The translations under genes were made by a program, and so were the position numbers. The notes below the pieces were generated by a model. That model saw only the letters and a list, made by a program, of their open reading frames with translations. It ran no database searches and had not been told where the DNA came from. From contig CAKRPQ010000001.1 in NCBI GenBank assembly GCA_934385225.1, forward strand, positions 4,876 to 68,875: a DNA stretch of 64,000 nucleotides, in the 5' to 3' direction. Position 1 is the first letter of the stretch; the number at the start of each line of letters is the position of its first letter. Shown here piece after piece: positions 6,007 to 13,562 of this stretch. Source of the stretch: an uncultured Eubacteriales bacterium. Lineage in GTDB: Bacteria; Bacillota; Clostridia; Oscillospirales; CAG-272.

Positions 6007-7434
6007 ATGAAGAAAAAAATTGTTAAAACACCTGTAATCACGCTTTTGCTTTTGTTTGCCGTCCTCCTTTCCTCATGCGGTGCGCGTGATGCGCACGAGG
6101 ACAGACCCGAGCTTTCGCTCTCCGACCTCGGTGTCGAAACGGGAAGCACGTCGGCACTTCTACCCGAACCGAACGCGAGCGGCGAAAAGACCGAATTTTT
6201 CGTCCTTTGCGAAAACGGCGCGGAGAGTTCGTTCGTTCCCTCAGGCGAGAGCGAAAGCGAGCTTGACAGAAAAGCCTTTGAGCGCAACGCCCGCATTGCG
6301 GACGAATACGGCATAATAATTCGCGAAATAAGCACGGGCGACATTGTGACAAAGGTCAAAAACGACGTTTTGTCGGGCAAAACCGACTACGACGCGATAG
6401 TTATGCGCGCAAAAAACGCGTCTCCGCTTATAACATCATTCAGTCTCGCAGATCTTGCGTTGCTCGGCTTTTCCCCGTCGGCAAAGGGCTATAACGAGAG
6501 CGTCATAAATTCCCTCTCGATCGCAAAAAAGCAGTATCTTGCCGTCGGTAACGCCACGCCGAGCCTGCTTCTCTCGTCTTACTGCGTCGCGCTCAACACG
6601 GAGATGTGCAAAAAAACGGGCGAAAGCGCGGAAAGCATCATTGCGGACGCCGAAAACGGGAAGTTCGATGCGGATACGATGTACCGTCTTTCCTCCGCGC
6701 TTGCGTCATCGGACGCGGGCGAGGAAATCACCAAAAGCGAGGGCGCACGCTATATAAGCGTCTCCGCGGACGATGCCTACGCGCTTTTTAACGCGGGCGG
6801 ACTTGATTTTTACTCTGCGGATCCCGTCACGGACGAGTTCAGACCGCTCGAAACGAGCGAGACGACGGACGCTCTTTATGACGCTATGCTTCTCCTCTAC
6901 GGCATCGACCACTCCTCCGAAAAATTCGACTGGGAAACCGCAAAATCGGGCGTGACGCCTCTCTTCTCCGTAATGACGGTGAATGAGCTCGGCAGTCTCG
7001 TCTCCGAGGGTGCGCCTTACGTCGCGCTTCCTATGCCGAAAATGACCGCAGGGCAGGAAAATTACCGCTCGACGGCGGATACGGACACCTTTGCCTGCAC
7101 AGCCGTACCCGCGGCGGCAGAGGACGGCGCGTATGCCGTAAAGGTCATGAACCTCATATACTCCCTGTCGGACGACATTTATTCTACCGTTCGCAAGTCC
7201 GTCGCGGGAAACGAAAGAGATGCCCGCGTTTTTGACATCATAGCAAACAACACTTATGCGAGCGCGCTTGAAATTTTCGGCTGGGGAGATCTGCCGTCCT
7301 TTATGACGTCGGCGATAAACGAACACCTAAAAACAAGCGTGTTCTCGCTCCGCGCCGCGGAAAGAATAAACGCCTCCGTCGCCGCGCTCGCAATATCCTC
7401 CGAATCCGTGAAAAACGGCACAAAGCCCGAATAA
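6007..7434 (+). CDS. lipoprotein of unknown function (possibly solute-binding-protein-like)
   Basis: MKKKIVKTPVITLLLLFAVLLSSCG gives a signal peptide plus lipobox LLSSC. The 475-aa soluble domain has no motif I can name. Confidence 0.7.
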   Translation: MKKKIVKTPVITLLLLFAVLLSSCGARDAHEDRPELSLSDLGVETGSTSALLPEPNASGEKTEFFVLCENGAESSFVPSGESESELDRKAFERNARIADEYGIIIREISTGDIVTKVKNDVLSGKTDYDAIVMRAKNASPLITSFSLADLALLGFSPSAKGYNESVINSLSIAKKQYLAVGNATPSLLLSSYCVALNTEMCKKTGESAESIIADAENGKFDADTMYRLSSALASSDAGEEITKSEGARYISVSADDAYALFNAGGLDFYSADPVTDEFRPLETSETTDALYDAMLLLYGIDHSSEKFDWETAKSGVTPLFSVMTVNELGSLVSEGAPYVALPMPKMTAGQENYRSTADTDTFACTAVPAAAEDGAYAVKVMNLIYSLSDDIYSTVRKSVAGNERDARVFDIIANNTYASALEIFGWGDLPSFMTSAINEHLKTSVFSLRAAERINASVAALAISSESVKNGTKPE

Positions 7435-10452: not shown

Positions 10453-10911
10453 ATGAATACACTCACAACAAAAGAAAACGGACTTCTTAAAGACCTCAAA
10501 ATGCAGGAACAGCTCTGCATAGACAAGTACACAAAATACGCGTCCGAGGCAAAGTCCGCGGAGCTTTCCGCCCTCTTCACTTCGATTGCAAAGACGGAAT
10601 GCGAGCATCTCAAAACGATAAACGAAATAATGGACGGCAAAGTCCCCGTAATGCCCGCGACGATAGGCAATTCGAACAATGAGCATACTTCCGCCTGCAA
10701 GTATGAGAGCGAAGAGGATAAAAAGCACGACGCATTTATGTGCAACGATATGCTCTCGACAGAAAAGCATGCGTCGAGCGTCTATGACGTCAGCGTTTTT
10801 GAGTTTATAAACCCCGAAAACAGACGTACCCTTAACCATATCCAGGCGGAAGAACAGCAGCACGGCGAACAGCTCTATAAGTATATGTCAAATAATAATA
10901 TGCAGTCGTAA
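10453..10911 (+). CDS. spore coat protein F (Coat_F) family protein
   Basis: LLKDLKMQEQLCIDKYTKYASEAKSAELSALFTSIAKTECEHLKTINEIM is a ferritin-like four-helix CotF pattern. Confidence 0.75.
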   Translation: MNTLTTKENGLLKDLKMQEQLCIDKYTKYASEAKSAELSALFTSIAKTECEHLKTINEIMDGKVPVMPATIGNSNNEHTSACKYESEEDKKHDAFMCNDMLSTEKHASSVYDVSVFEFINPENRRTLNHIQAEEQQHGEQLYKYMSNNNMQS

Positions 10912-11513: not shown

Positions 11514-11542
11514 TTGACATACGCACAAAAAAATGCTATAAT
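11514..11542 (+). promoter_or_regulatory. sigma-A promoter with extended -10, upstream of the tRNA-Pro locus
   Basis: TTGACA (11514-11519), 17 nt, TGcTATAAT (-10 at 11537-11542). Confidence 0.6.
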
Positions 11543-11564
11543 ATGTAAATGCAATATGTCATAT

Positions 11565-11602
11565 CGGGGTGTGGCGCAGCTGGTAGCGCGCGAAGTTTGG
11601 GA
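11565..11602 (+). pseudogene. 5'-half copy of tRNA-Pro (acceptor 5' arm, D arm, anticodon loop); no 3' half
   Basis: 11563-11593 is identical to 11780-11810 of the intact gene. One mismatch follows, then GTTTGGGA is again identical. Downstream sequence cannot form the anticodon stem or a T arm. Confidence 0.6.
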
Positions 11603-11700
11603 GCGTGTGACCGCCTCGTGAGCCGACCGCCGAAAGCTCGCAAAATCTCCGTTTTTCTCGCGTTTCCTCGCTTTTCCGCCGCCGTGTGTTTCGGAAAAAA

Positions 11701-11742
11701 CTTTTGACCACAGATAAAACTTTTGACCACAGATTTGACCAC
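11701..11742 (+). repeat. direct repeats CTTTTGACCACAGAT x2 plus TTGACCAC (arm-site-like)
   Basis: Copies at 11701-11715 and 11720-11734, with a partial copy at 11735-11742. A related TTTTGACCGCA lies at 11868-11878, just 3' of the tRNA. Confidence 0.7.
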
Positions 11743-11781
11743 TTACGGATTAGACCGCAAAAACCGAATATTTTCACCAAT

Positions 11782-11857
11782 CGGGGTGTGGCGCAGCTGG
11801 TAGCGCGCGACGTTTGGGACGTCGATGCCGTCGGTTCGAATCCGGCCACTCCGACCA
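11782..11857 (+). tRNA. tRNA-Pro (anticodon UGG), CCA encoded
   Basis: Manual cloverleaf. Acceptor CGGGGTG/CACTCCG. D arm GCGC-AGCTGGTA-GCGC. Anticodon arm CGACG-TTTGGGA-CGTCG (UGG, G37). T arm GTCGG-TTCGAAT-CCGGC. Discriminator A followed by CCA. Total 76 nt. Confidence 0.93.
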
Positions 11858-11880
11858 AAAAACGCGGTTTTGACCGCATG

Positions 11881-11914
11881 AAAGCCGCAAAGTTGGGTTA
11901 CTTTGCGGCTTTTT
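11881..11914 (+). terminator. rho-independent terminator after tRNA-Pro
   Basis: AAAGCCGCAAAG (11881-11892) pairs with CTTTGCGGCTTT (11901-11912), followed by a T-run. Confidence 0.65.
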
Positions 11915-11938
11915 ATCACATCAAGAAAGGATTATGCA

Positions 11939-13042
11939 ATGATTATTTTAAGACAAGGCAAGGCTAAAAGGATTTTGGATGGGTCCATAAATAGCGCCCT
12001 AACCGCCGTTGAAACATATAATCGCCCTCGTACTTTGTTTAGAATCGAAAATTATATAGTCCTTATGATTATTGCTTGGACAAAATTATTTCATGCCTTC
12101 TTTCAAAGCGAAATTGGCGAAAGGTATTTTTACAAAGAAAAAAATGGGCGCTATAAAAAAATTGATGGTGAAAAGAAAGCTTGGGAGTTAACTGAGTGCA
12201 TTAGAGAATATCAGAAATTAAGAAAATCCTATTCCAATCTGTCAGAAGCAACCGTTGCTAATTTAAACTTTTTCATTGGGTTGCGTAATAAAATTGAACA
12301 TCGATATTGGGACGGATCATCATTGGATATTCTTCTTTTTGGTGAATGTCAAGCACTATTGTTTAATTACGAAACCTTGATGGTAACGTTATTTGGCGAT
12401 GATTATTCAATAAACACATGTCTTGCGTATGCTCTTCAATTTTCACACTTACGTGCCCAAGAGCAAATAAAAGCGCAAAGAGATTTATTGTCAAAAGATA
12501 TGCAAGACATAAAAAAATACATTGACAAATATAAAACCGATTTGCCACAAGAAATTTTTGACAGTCAAGAGTACAGCATAAAACTATTACAAATCCCTAA
12601 AATAAGTAACGCCAATCGCCACGATTTGTCTGTCGAGTTCGTCAATTGGAATACTTTGAATGATGAAGATAGAGAAAACTACAACAGAATTAGTACAATT
12701 ATTAAAGACAAAGTGATTGTTCAAAGGGTATCAAATGCAAGTTTGATGCGCCCTTGCGATGTTATCAATGCCGTGAAACAGCAATCCGGGGTTAACCTAT
12801 CATACAACGACCATACACTTCTTTGGAAGTGCTTTAAGGTTCGTCCACAAACAAATAGTGGTGCGAAATTTGATACGATTCCCAGATACTGTATCTACGA
12901 CGAACCACACAACGATTATCTTTACTCGGAAGATTGGGTGAGCATTATTGTTCAATTGCTTCGTGAGAGAATTATTACTAAAGAAACCATTCGTGAGTTT
13001 TGCGCTCAATCCCGAGCTATTTCCGAGTACGAATCACGTTAA
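11939..13042 (+). CDS. DUF3644-like protein (unknown function) in an AT-rich islet
   Basis: ATG 11939 with AAAGGA 8 nt upstream; the track's TTG 11903 lies inside the terminator. The N-terminus SINSALTAVETYNRPRTLFRIENYIVLMIIAWTKLFHAFF resembles the DUF3644 signature as I remember it. The gene is clearly more AT-rich than its flanks. Confidence 0.8.
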   Translation: MIILRQGKAKRILDGSINSALTAVETYNRPRTLFRIENYIVLMIIAWTKLFHAFFQSEIGERYFYKEKNGRYKKIDGEKKAWELTECIREYQKLRKSYSNLSEATVANLNFFIGLRNKIEHRYWDGSSLDILLFGECQALLFNYETLMVTLFGDDYSINTCLAYALQFSHLRAQEQIKAQRDLLSKDMQDIKKYIDKYKTDLPQEIFDSQEYSIKLLQIPKISNANRHDLSVEFVNWNTLNDEDRENYNRISTIIKDKVIVQRVSNASLMRPCDVINAVKQQSGVNLSYNDHTLLWKCFKVRPQTNSGAKFDTIPRYCIYDEPHNDYLYSEDWVSIIVQLLRERIITKETIREFCAQSRAISEYESR

Positions 13043-13114
13043 TTATTTGCGTATTTTTTCTTTGTCTACCGCAACCCCAATATTGAAGGGCGACCGTTCG
13101 TGGTCGCCCCTTTG

Positions 13115-13562
13115 CTATGCCTGTTTTGCCTTTTTCTTTTCGGTTGCAATTTCCGCTTTCATCGTTTTTATCAGCTCTGCCAGCTTCTCCTCGCACTCCT
13201 CCCGCGTGGTGGCGCAGGTCGTGAAACCGCACCCGCTTGCAGTTTGCGCGTTCCAGTATCTTCTGAAACCGATGATAGACCGCCGAAGGGTGTCGCGGTT
13301 GCGTGAGGTCAAGCGGGGACGGGAAAATCCATTCACTGTCGGTTCGCGTTTTCAGTTCTGCCATCAGTTCGAGCATTTCGGACGGCAACAGAATCATGCG
13401 GTTGGAGGATTTCGTTTTCGGTGTGGAGATCAGCACCTTTCCGTTGACCTTCAGCACCTGCCGCGAGATGTGCAGCTCACCTGTTTTCAGATTCAGATCC
13501 CGCCATTTCAGCGCGAGAATTTCGCCTGTCTTTGCAACAGCGGCGGGCTGTCTCTTATCCAT
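13115..13562 (-). pseudogene. scrambled tyrosine-recombinase (integrase) remnant
   Basis: ORF 13017..13562 carries GEILALKWRDLNL...TPKTKSSNRMILLP...RVRFHDLRHH (box II HxxR). It lacks the box I Arg context and the catalytic Tyr region. After HDLRHH only a shifted frame (ORF 13115..13336) makes sense, reading REECEEKLAELIKTMKAEIATEKKKAK, which is an integrase N-terminal-linker-like segment. Confidence 0.7.

What the first reader, a model, noticed from the sequence alone, without database searches (positions are those of the whole stretch)
11514..11914. tRNA-Pro locus: a promoter-proximal 5'-half copy, arm-like direct repeats, then the intact gene
An exact-consensus extended -10 promoter (11514-11542) is followed about 20 nt later by a 39/40-nt copy of the 5' half of tRNA-Pro(UGG), running through the anticodon loop (11563-11602). 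This copy has no 3' half. The intact gene lies 217 nt downstream (11782-11857).

The intervening DNA carries CTTTTGACCACAGAT twice plus TTGACCAC (11701-11742). A related TTTTGACCGCA sits just 3' of the tRNA (11868-11878).

Integrative elements normally duplicate the 3' part of a tRNA. A duplicated 5' part ending in the anticodon loop is the opposite polarity. It suggests either an anticodon-loop att site used by an element that carried the 5' half, or a rearranged tandem tRNA pair. The repeats look like integrase arm sites.
Basis: partly seen in the sequence, partly recalled or inferred. Interest (0 to 1): 0.55.

Follow-up and report, generated by a model that had tools for sequence, protein, structure and literature searches.

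The report
Split tRNA-Pro gene with mobile-element replacement
A mobile element cut the host's proline tRNA gene in two at the anticodon loop and, instead of repairing it, brought its own complete copy; this integration strategy, proven so far only in actinobacterial phages, turns out to be widespread in gut Clostridia.

Summary
A consensus promoter (11514-11542) is followed by the first 38 nt of tRNA-Pro(UGG) (11565-11602), a 179-nt spacer with three TTGACCAC repeats, then an intact tRNA-Pro (11782-11857).

It is not a broken tandem pair. It is the left junction (attL) of an integrative element. Sister strains share the promoter and 5' half but vary from the base after the anticodon loop.

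In viral contigs and at least 120 genome records, about 146 orphan 5' halves (66 distinct sequences) are cut at the same position and joined to related spacers. In two elements the orphan 5' half plus a displaced 3' half at the far end rebuild a perfect tRNA-Pro.

attP shares only TTTGGGA (7-10 bp) with the target, so no tRNA is rebuilt. The element supplies a whole tRNA-Pro just inside attL, probably read from the host promoter (inferred).

Downstream lie a candidate defence gene (DUF3644/PDC-S19) and a dead integrase, so the window holds a decayed remnant.

The principle matches 'tRNA-dependent lysogeny' (Guerrero-Bustamante & Hatfull 2024). New here are the phylum, the tRNA target, the tRNA built into the att arm, the defence-island or mobilisable hosts, and stacked orphan halves.

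The parts
11514..11542 (+). Host sigma-70 promoter of the original tRNA-Pro gene (TTGACA-17-TATAAT with TG). It is the only good promoter upstream of the element-borne tRNA.
   Evidence: 12/12 matches, extended -10. It is conserved in all sister strains, including those without the module.
11565..11602 (+). Orphaned 5' part (tRNA positions 1-38) of the host tRNA-Pro(UGG) gene. This is the host (B) side of attL.
   Evidence: In L003/L004 the same 38 nt continue into a 3' half to give one intact tRNA. ARAGORN finds no tRNA here in the window.
11596..11602 (.). Common core and crossover region: the anticodon loop TTTGGGA.
   Evidence: The same 7 nt are shared by attL, attR, attP-like and reconstructed attB junctions. 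About 146 orphan halves end here.
11603..11693 (+). Element-derived spacer 'Y': the core-proximal part of the P' arm, of the GCGTGTGACC family, containing the motif ACCGCCGAAAGC.
   Evidence: The same spacer family is joined to 16 different 5' halves in 28 loci. See also the alignments.
11694..11758 (+). Arm-type repeat block 'X': TTGACCAC at 11704, 11723 and 11735, a degenerate TTAGACCGC at 11750-11758, and a 19-nt tandem duplication (11694-11712 / 11713-11731).
   Evidence: all 3 window copies lie here. One search shows conserved position and orientation in 122 spacers. One search shows a matching GACCAC pair in the R arm.
11782..11857 (+). Complete tRNA-Pro(UGG) with encoded CCA: the element-borne replacement gene (anticodon stem C29:G41, versus A29 in the orphan half).
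   Evidence: The full tRNA follows the spacer in all related modules.
11864..11916 (+). Small hairpin (11864-11877) and intrinsic terminator (stem 11881-11912 plus a T run) of the element's tRNA unit.
   Evidence: inverted repeat I6, 13/13. One search shows the same double-hairpin design, with a compensatory change, after element tRNAs in L058, L130, L143 and L149.
11939..13042 (+). Cargo gene in the variable slot between the element tRNA and the integrase: DUF3644, a PADLOC candidate defence protein (PDC-S19).
   Evidence: PF12358, 8e-55; PDC-S19, 1.7e-136. Other strains and elements hold other genes in this slot.
13055..13072 (+). Cassette-boundary motif TTTTCTTTGTCTACCGC, which recurs at the edges of cargo genes in related elements.
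   Evidence: 1 mismatch to the motif. The same motif is visible in L033, L021, L020, L001, L080 and L005.
13100..13562 (-). Tyrosine integrase pseudogene (IntA type). The N-terminal half is deleted at the junction with the host glycosidase-like gene (1058-aa ORF), and there is an internal deletion near the C-terminus.
   Evidence: (PF00589), one search compared, and (56% identity to the L020 integrase). It is nearly identical to the 480-aa IntA of L083/L137.

Best explanation
The locus is the left junction (attL) and decayed remnant of an integrative element. The element uses a tyrosine integrase to recombine with the anticodon loop of the host tRNA-Pro(UGG) gene.

The element's attP shares only the loop sequence TTTGGGA (7-10 bp) with the target. 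Integration therefore splits the tRNA gene and rebuilds it at neither junction.
- The host promoter and tRNA positions 1-38 are stranded at attL (11514-11602).
- The host 3' half goes to the far end of the element (attR). It has since been deleted here.

The element compensates with its own complete tRNA-Pro(UGG) gene (11782-11857). This gene sits 179 nt inside attL, directly after the P' arm, which carries the arm-type sites TTGACCAC. There it is most likely transcribed from the captured host promoter and released by RNase P.

Downstream come the element's terminator, a swappable candidate defence gene (DUF3644/PDC-S19) and the integrase, now a pseudogene.

Shown:
- The anatomy.
- The site-specific junction.
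- attL/attR pairs that rebuild a tRNA.
- The associated integrases.

Inferred:
- Read-through transcription from the host promoter.
- Essentiality of the element tRNA.
- Which of the two integrases acts.
- The exact order of events in this species.

On the last point, the module may date from the original integration. Alternatively it is the scar of a later integration whose body was lost by recombination between the two 3' halves.
For: 1. Sister strains (aligned) are identical from upstream through the anticodon loop and diverge from the next base.
- L003/L004 have a single intact tRNA.
- L005 has a 199-nt module with different downstream DNA.
- L001 has the host half, a spacer, the 5' half of a different tRNA-Pro, another spacer, then that tRNA complete.

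By record title most are Oscillospiraceae, Ruminococcaceae, Acutalibacteraceae or unclassified Clostridia/Eubacteriales.
- About 146 orphan 5' halves (66 distinct sequences) all end after TTTGGGA and are followed by GC-starting spacers, then a full tRNA-Pro.
- The window's own spacer family is joined to 16 different halves.

3. Right ends were found in L033, L157, L158, L160, L161 and L162: R arm, TTTGGGA, displaced 3' half. In L033 (3.1-kb element) and contig IMGVR_UViG_7000000040_000159 (about 16 kb), the attL 5' half plus the attR 3' half give a perfect tRNA-Pro by ARAGORN. The window's half plus its spacer gives none.

4. The R arm carries TGACCACATAACAGACCAC, the same GACCAC pair with 12-bp spacing as the X block. 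Arm sites cluster at +100 to +140 in one orientation.

5. An integrase homologue lies on the opposite strand, 1-3.8 kb downstream of the element tRNA, in 19 of 24 loci with enough sequence. The window fragment is 56% identical to the L020 integrase and near-identical to IntA of L083/L137.

6. Promoters: 31 of 78 outermost orphan halves have a match of at least 10/12 upstream (20 are perfect), against 5 of 107 X arms. In the window there is no other promoter and no + strand terminator between 11542 and 11782.

7. The same principle is experimentally established in actinobacteriophages (PMC10865867).
Against: - No right end (R arm or displaced 3' half) survives in the window, so the element cannot be delimited here.
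- No attP or attR was recovered for the window's own spacer family (GCGTGTGACC). The attR evidence comes from the sister GCATAGAC family, whose IntA is about 55-65% identical.
- L003/L004 share the tRNA 3' flank, DUF3644 and the integrase remnant at background divergence yet lack the module. The module therefore may not date from the event that brought the cargo.
- The window's tRNA differs from the orphan half and from the L003 tRNA by a compensated pair (C29:G41 versus A29:U41). Every simple history needs one extra step to explain this.
- Transcription from the host promoter is not shown. The minimum-free-energy fold pairs the orphan acceptor strand with the 3' end of the real tRNA, which could hamper processing.
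- Many X arms contain a weak TTGACC-17/18-AAAAAT candidate promoter.
Confidence: 0.85

Rival explanations
1. Module-only mobile unit. The 217-nt block (spacer, arm sites, 5' half and loop) is a minimal attP-like circle. It would be produced by integrase-mediated recombination between two anticodon loops and re-inserted in trans into a resident tRNA-Pro gene, independently of any element body.
For: - Window versus L003/L004 differ essentially by this block only, with the same tRNA flank and cargo.
- L021 versus L158 differ by one such block at an attR junction.
- Blocks stack up to four deep with a regular period of 186-206 nt.
Against: - No circular form was seen.
- The same footprints arise without a mobile mini-circle. 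An element integrates, and its body is then lost by homologous recombination between the element tRNA's 3' half and the displaced host 3' half.
- That route also explains the compensated C29:G41 pair in the window. Simple mini-circle insertion into an A29:U41 gene does not.
Confidence: 0.1
2. Mirror-image canonical island. The element's attP carries the 5' half of the tRNA, so the gene is rebuilt at the right junction from the element 5' half plus the host 3' half, and the host 5' half is the single displaced fragment.
For: - Islands with a displaced 5' tDNA fragment exist: 159 of 3919 in Islander (PMC4383910).
- L021 shows an element 5' half joined to a foreign 3' half.
Against: - In complete elements the body (cargo, integrases) lies downstream of the full tRNA, not between the orphan half and the tRNA.
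- A displaced 3' half sits at the far end next to a non-tRNA R arm.
- Only 179 nt separate the half from the gene.
- The hybrid in L021 has a non-pairing anticodon stem, and ARAGORN does not call it a tRNA.
Confidence: 0.05
3. Tandem tRNA-Pro duplication in which the first copy lost its 3' half by an ordinary deletion.
For: Two near-identical 5' halves lie 217 nt apart in direct orientation.
Against: - No relative shows two complete tandem genes.
- The break point is the same nucleotide for 66 different 5' halves, including non-homologous tRNA-Pro types, and is always joined to related spacer families.
Confidence: 0.02
4. The insertion is an RNA element: an intron-like or regulatory leader within or upstream of the tRNA, processed at the RNA level.
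For: The insertion sits exactly at an anticodon-loop boundary, where bacterial tRNA group I introns also lie (own knowledge). Removing the 217 nt would restore a tRNA.
Against: - No Rfam family matches at E up to 1 except the tRNA itself and two weak chance hits.
- The fold is no more stable than shuffled sequence, z = -0.56.
- The block contains protein-site-like direct repeats and a duplicated tRNA half, and it co-occurs with integrases.
Confidence: 0.02

Closest known systems
tRNA-dependent lysogeny of actinobacteriophages such as Fionnbharth, LeBron, Gaia, Cain and BrutonGaster (Guerrero-Bustamante & Hatfull, mBio 2024, PMC10865867)
   Same: - A tyrosine integrase with arm-type sites acts on an attB inside a host tRNA gene.
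- The common core is short (8-17 bp there, 7-10 bp here), so no functional tRNA is rebuilt.
[quoted passage not shown]
   Different: - Host phylum: Clostridia rather than Actinobacteria.
- Target: tRNA-Pro(UGG).
- Position of the replacement tRNA: here it lies inside the att arm, about 150-180 nt from the crossover, and is oriented to be read from the host tRNA promoter. In Fionnbharth it lies elsewhere with its own demonstrated promoter.
- Carriers include defence islands and a MobL-relaxase element, not only phages.
- Intact elements have two tandem tyrosine recombinases.
- Orphan halves stack in arrays.
- Requirement of the tRNA for viability is not tested here.
Lj965 prophage of Lactobacillus johnsonii, as cited in PMC10865867
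   Same: A Firmicutes prophage reported not to rebuild the tRNA at its junction and to carry a cognate tRNA.
   Different: Known to me only through that citation. Its att anatomy, the position of its tRNA and its integrase family were not compared here.
Canonical tRNA-gene islands with anticodon-loop crossover (Islander model, site A; PMC4383910)
   Same: Tyrosine integrase, crossover in the 7-nt anticodon loop flanked by the symmetric anticodon stem, an integrase gene near the tRNA-proximal end, and tandem accumulation at one tDNA.
   Different: In canonical islands attP contains the tRNA segment from the crossover to the 3' end (or the 5' end in about 4%). One junction regenerates the gene and one fragment is displaced. 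Here neither junction regenerates it, both halves are displaced, and a third, complete gene is supplied. Algorithms based on the canonical signature would mis-map these elements.
Lambda-type attP organisation (own knowledge of lambda Int/attP)
   Same: A short overlap region is flanked by imperfect inverted core sites (ATGC-G-TTTGGGA-GCAT in attP). Arm-type sites lie about 100-150 bp away on both sides. The whole attP is about 250-300 bp.
   Different: The target is a tRNA anticodon stem-loop. One arm is fused to a functional tRNA gene.

Membership tests
tRNA-dependent lysogeny / tRNA-dependent integration (PMC10865867) | The element encodes a tyrosine-family integrase with arm-type attP organisation. 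| tested here: met
   - The window holds a PF00589 pseudogene.
- Intact relatives have IntA/IntB with PF14659 plus PF00589.
- Integrase is present in 19 of 24 informative loci.
- Paired GACCAC sites occur in both arms.
tRNA-dependent lysogeny / tRNA-dependent integration (PMC10865867) | attB overlaps a host tRNA gene. | tested here: met
   The junction lies at the 3' edge of the anticodon loop of tRNA-Pro(UGG). The host flank and promoter are conserved in all strains.
tRNA-dependent lysogeny / tRNA-dependent integration (PMC10865867) | [quoted passage not shown] | tested here: met
   The core is TTTGGGA plus 0-3 further bases. ARAGORN finds no tRNA at the half-plus-spacer junction. The R arm upstream of the displaced 3' half is not tRNA-like.
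tRNA-dependent lysogeny / tRNA-dependent integration (PMC10865867) | The element carries a tRNA gene of the same isotype and anticodon as the disrupted one. | tested here: met
   tRNA-Pro(UGG) at 11782-11857. The same holds in essentially all modules (131 tRNA-Pro(tgg) calls; architectures).
tRNA-dependent lysogeny / tRNA-dependent integration (PMC10865867) | The element tRNA is required for survival of integrants (the host tRNA is otherwise essential or single-copy). | not testable with these tools
   This needs the whole genome's tRNA set and genetics. Only 64 kb is available, and it holds a single tRNA.
tRNA-dependent lysogeny / tRNA-dependent integration (PMC10865867) | The carrier is a temperate phage (lysogeny in the strict sense). 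| tested here: inconclusive
   - The window remnant has no phage genes.
- Relatives include a MobL-relaxase element and a defence island.
- 17 viral contigs show the order lysis genes, R arm, core, spacer.
Canonical tRNA-gene genomic island (Islander signature, PMC4383910) | The island's attP holds a tDNA fragment, so that integration regenerates the tRNA at a junction. | tested here: not met
   Neither junction regenerates the gene.
Canonical tRNA-gene genomic island (Islander signature, PMC4383910) | One displaced end fragment marks the far end, with the island lying between the full tDNA and the fragment. | tested here: not met
   Two fragments are displaced: the 5' half at attL and the 3' half at attR. 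The full tDNA is internal to the element, 179 nt from the 5' fragment.
Canonical tRNA-gene genomic island (Islander signature, PMC4383910) | Crossover at one of the preferred sublocations (anticodon loop, or T-loop/acceptor junction). | tested here: met
   Anticodon loop, in about 146 junctions.
Tandem tRNA duplication with truncation | Relatives retain two full tandem genes, and truncation end points are arbitrary. | tested here: not met
tRNA intron or structured RNA leader | A match to a known RNA family, or a thermodynamically or evolutionarily supported structure. | tested here: not met
   (no family). (z = -0.56).

The most novel reading that the evidence does not exclude
Essential-gene capture as an addiction ratchet.

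The element destroys the host's tRNA-Pro(UGG) gene and places the only working copy under the host's own promoter. Its left end, and the adjacent defence-gene slot, then cannot be lost by any route except precise integrase-mediated excision.

Once the integrase or the right end decays, as in this window, the remnant is fixed. Each later invasion that is lost by recombination between 3' halves adds another orphan half. The arrays of up to four halves would then be a chronological scar record.

Over time the host's tRNA-Pro gene is overwritten horizontally across at least a hundred gut species.
Probability: 0.35. Interest if true: 0.7.

Novelty: new variant of a known kind. Interest (0 to 1): 0.55.

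Why it matters
- It extends tRNA-dependent integration from actinobacteriophages to a large group of human and animal gut Clostridia. The arm motif was found in at least 120 genome records, and 86 of the 120 loci analysed hold an orphan half.
- It extends the strategy beyond phages, to defence islands and mobilisable elements.
- It shows a compact design in which the replacement tRNA is part of the attachment arm and can use the captured host promoter.
- It explains orphan 5' tRNA fragments and their arrays. Canonical island-mapping rules (one regenerated gene plus one displaced fragment) would misread these.
- It marks a hotspot where defence genes are swapped: PDC-S19, a retron RT-Toprim, a RES-domain protein, and AIPR/TIR.
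- It suggests a way in which a decayed element becomes non-losable and an essential tRNA gene is replaced horizontally.
- The short core plus arm sites and the integrases could serve as an integration tool for poorly tractable gut anaerobes.

Tried and rejected
- Rfam at gathering and at permissive thresholds: only the tRNA. The intron/riboswitch idea was dropped.
- RNA fold of the promoter-to-terminator transcript: no better than shuffles. A structured leader was dropped.
- Exact 26-nt junction search in viral contigs: 0 hits, because the pattern was too strain-specific. The arm motif worked instead.
- Metagenome scan with the host promoter plus half: 0 hits. No extra strains were gained from JGI data.
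- The search for homologous proteins with the integrase fragment returned only short fragments and no full-length relatives. The search for related loci with a full IntA worked instead.
- GenBank phages: only unannotated gut contigs (MT839022, MT839295). MT839022 carries the module but has no terminal direct repeat, so it gives no sign of a circular form and no free attP was obtained. MT839295 shows no such junction.
- TTTTGACCGCA 3' of the tRNA as an arm site: rejected, because it belongs to a covarying hairpin.
- A search of the window for R-arm sequences and for a second 3' half found none.
- An internal promoter in the window's X block: none by the scan.
- Tandem-duplication and mirror-image-island readings were rejected on comparative evidence.
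- The order of events in this species (module original versus later scar) could not be resolved.
Full report
**Observation**

- A perfect extended -10 promoter lies at 11514-11542 (TTGACA-17-TATAAT with TG).
- It is followed by a 40-nt direct repeat, 11563-11602 versus 11780-11819, 39/40 identical.
- The first copy covers tRNA positions 1-38 and stops at the last base of the anticodon loop TTTGGGA. No tRNA is predicted there.
- The second copy is the start of a complete tRNA-Pro(UGG) at 11782-11857 (ARAGORN; Rfam 62 bits).
- All three TTGACCAC octamers of the 64-kb window lie at 11704-11742, against 0.74 expected.
- Locus L002, from an independent assembly, is identical over all regions compared, so this is not an assembly artefact.

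**Same-species comparison**

The spore-coat-like (Pfam Coat_F) gene upstream (10453-10911) was used to fetch contigs of the same species. All strains are identical from the promoter through the anticodon loop and become variable at the very next base.
- L003/L004 have a single intact tRNA: the same 5' half plus a 3' half with the matching stem, A29:U41.
- L005 has a 199-nt version of the module and different DNA after the tRNA.
- L001 has the host 5' half, a spacer, the 5' half of a different tRNA-Pro(UGG), a second spacer, and then that other tRNA complete.

Two unrelated tRNA-Pro types broken at the same nucleotide and joined to the same spacer cannot come from random deletion in a tandem pair.

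**A widespread architecture**

The arm motif TTGACCACAGATTTGACCAC found 28 viral contigs. By their record titles most are Oscillospiraceae, Ruminococcaceae, Acutalibacteraceae or unclassified Clostridia/Eubacteriales. They include the isolates Hominenteromicrobium mulieris and Acetivibrio sp. MSJd-27.

Every locus shows the same order: the 5' half of a tRNA-Pro(UGG) ending in TTTGGGA, a spacer beginning GC, a block of GACCAC repeats, then a full tRNA-Pro or another half followed by another spacer.
- About 146 orphan halves with 66 distinct sequences all break at this position.
- The window's spacer family (GCGTGTGACC) is joined to 16 different halves in 28 loci.
- 86 of 120 genome loci have at least one orphan half.
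- Arrays hold one (92 cases), two (22), three (2) or four (1) orphan halves.
- The loop-to-loop period is mostly 186-206 nt. The window's 217 nt reflects a 19-nt tandem duplication that adds one arm site.

**The other end of the element**

L033 contains a complete small element. Its order is:
- host 5' half;
- spacer and arm sites;
- full tRNA-Pro and terminator;
- a 212-aa cargo gene;
- an integrase on the opposite strand;
- an 'R' arm containing TGACCACATAACAGACCAC;
- TTTGGGA;
- the displaced 3' half of the host tRNA.

Searching with the R arm gave more right ends: L157, L158, L160, L161 and L162.

The attL 5' half plus the attR 3' half of L033 fold into a perfect tRNA-Pro(UGG). The same holds for contig IMGVR_UViG_7000000040_000159, where the two ends are about 16 kb apart. 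The window's half plus spacer, and a hybrid junction in L021, do not fold into a tRNA.

The reconstructed attP is R arm, ATGC-G-TTTGGGA-GCAT, then spacer. This is an imperfect inverted repeat around a 7-bp overlap, mimicking the anticodon stem-loop. Both arms hold GACCAC pairs with 12-bp spacing in one orientation. In the P' arm they sit at +100 to +140 from the crossover. This is a lambda-like attP (own knowledge of lambda).

Seventeen viral contigs show lysis genes followed by an R-type arm, TTTGGGA and a spacer, which is an attP-like configuration.

**Genes of the element**

A homologous integrase lies on the opposite strand, 1-3.8 kb after the element tRNA, in 19 of 24 loci with more than 4 kb of downstream sequence.

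Intact elements have two adjacent tyrosine recombinases, IntA (about 480 aa, with a C-terminal extension) and IntB (about 385-464 aa). Both carry PF14659 and PF00589. They are followed by one of two gene sets:
- a MobL relaxase in L075; or
- an HTH_36 protein and defence-type genes (AIPR, HATPase-TIR, Vsr, C5 methylase, DUF4420) in the 16-kb element.

The slot between the tRNA and IntA holds varying genes:
- in the window, DUF3644, a PADLOC candidate defence protein PDC-S19 (E = 1.7e-136);
- in L020, a retron-type RT-Toprim;
- in L075, a RES-domain protein.

The window's integrase (13100-13562, minus strand) is a pseudogene. It has lost its N-terminal half at the border with the host glycosidase-like gene, and it has an internal deletion (one search compared).

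No R arm and no second 3' half exist in the window. The window therefore holds attL plus a decayed left end.

**How it most likely works**

Integration exchanges strands within TTTGGGA. Because attP has no tRNA sequence beyond that, the host gene is split and not rebuilt. The element's own tRNA-Pro(UGG) replaces it.

In the window the only good promoter is the host one, and there is no + strand terminator between it and the tRNA. Across the family, 31 of 78 outermost orphan halves have a promoter match of at least 10/12 (20 are perfect), against 5 of 107 arm regions.

I therefore infer a read-through precursor: orphan half, spacer, then tRNA, from which RNase P releases the tRNA. This step is inferred, not shown. 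The fold prediction even suggests the orphan acceptor strand could compete for the tRNA's 3' end. Many arms also have a weak TTGACC-17/18-AAAAAT candidate promoter.

**History in this species**

Window and L003 differ by 1.1-1.7% in the flanks, in the tRNA 3' flank and in DUF3644 alike. The remnant therefore predates their split. Two histories are possible.
- The ancestor carried the module, and L003 lost it by recombination between the duplicated 5' halves.
- A later element integrated, and its body was lost by recombination between its tRNA's 3' half and the displaced 3' half, leaving only the module.

The second route accounts for the compensated C29:G41 pair of the window's tRNA and for module-only differences such as L021 versus L158. 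I cannot decide between them. Both are scars of the same integration mechanism.

The TTTTGACCGCA after the tRNA is the loop and stem of a small hairpin, GCGGT-TTTG-ACCGC. It recurs after element tRNAs elsewhere with a compensatory change, GCGGA...TCCGC. It is not an arm site.

The element does not carry 'a 5' half'. It carries a whole gene, and the promoter-proximal half is the host's.

**Comparison with what is known**

Canonical tRNA-gene islands regenerate the gene from a fragment in attP and displace one fragment. In Islander that fragment is a 3' fragment in 3760 of 3919 islands and a 5' fragment in 159 (PMC4383910). The present family fails that defining feature.

It matches 'tRNA-dependent lysogeny' (Guerrero-Bustamante & Hatfull 2024, PMC10865867). 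That system has a tyrosine integrase, an attB in a tRNA gene, a core of only 8-17 bp so that no tRNA is rebuilt, and a phage tRNA of the same isotype that complements the loss. The authors proved the requirement genetically in mycobacteriophages. They suggested it may occur elsewhere, citing the prophage Lj965.

Four of the five sequence-level criteria are met here. The phage criterion is inconclusive, and the genetic requirement cannot be tested with these tools.

The differences are:
- the phylum and the target tRNA;
- the replacement tRNA built into the att arm next to the crossover (in Fionnbharth it is elsewhere with its own promoter);
- two tandem recombinases;
- carriers that are defence islands or mobilisable elements as well as phages;
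- stacked orphan halves.

Full-text searches found no description of this tRNA-Pro system in gut Clostridia. That is absence of evidence only.

**Verdict**

I classify it as a new variant of a known kind, with interest 0.55.

Noticed in passing
window 11939-13042: The gene right after the element tRNA is DUF3644 and matches the PADLOC candidate defence family PDC-S19 (E = 1.7e-136). It lies in a low-GC kilobase (0.35). In other strains and elements the same slot holds other genes: an HTH regulator, a retron RT-Toprim, a RES-domain protein and a 212-aa unknown.
   Followed up: partly
window 13055-13072; also L033, L021, L020, L001, L080, L005: A conserved motif of about 30 nt (TTTTCTTTGTCTACYGC...CAAATTTTGAC) sits at the boundaries of the cargo genes in many elements. 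It may be a cassette-exchange site, or a shared terminator/promoter region.
   Followed up: partly
L075, L078, L083, L044, L137, L126, L130, L187: Intact elements carry two adjacent tyrosine recombinase genes, IntA (about 480 aa, with a C-terminal extension) and IntB (about 385-464 aa). The 377-aa integrase of L020 looks like a chimera of the IntB N-terminus and the IntA catalytic domain. Which recombinase acts on the tRNA-Pro site is unknown.
   Followed up: partly
L021 1190-3100 and L158: A large serine recombinase gene and a ParB-like gene lie immediately after the displaced tRNA-Pro 3' half. The flank TATCGAGTGTTC abuts the CCA end, and a similar flank follows the tRNA in L005. This may be a second kind of element using the 3' end of tRNA-Pro.
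   Followed up: no
L005 7655-7695: There is a stray 3' fragment of another tRNA (GGTTCAATCCCCACACCCCCACCA) inside the DNA downstream of the element tRNA. It is probably a relic of a further integration event.
   Followed up: no
L080 (CP091718.1, Oscillospiraceae MAG chromosome) 6560-6800, minus strand: At a different locus (after an AbrB-like gene), the element tRNA is identical to the single tRNA of L003. The orphan half in front of it has a mutated loop (TTTGGGGA) and a degenerate arm block upstream. This fits old, decaying scars and element-to-host tRNA identity.
   Followed up: partly
L020 2700-2960 and 16 other viral loci: In phage contigs the order is holin, R-type arm, TTTGGGA, a second spacer family with its own extended -10 promoter (TGTTATAAT), a tRNA-Pro 5' half, then the next module. 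Phage genomes thus carry nested modules, possibly picked up by excision from an upstream core.
   Followed up: partly
L167, L173, L174: More distant IntA relatives (57-63% identity) sit on loci with a different arrangement. L167 and L173 hold a single intact tRNA-Pro with no orphan half within the stretch held. L174 holds only a non-tRNA arm joined to a 3' half. These may be variants that do rebuild the tRNA, or simply the far side of an element.
   Followed up: no
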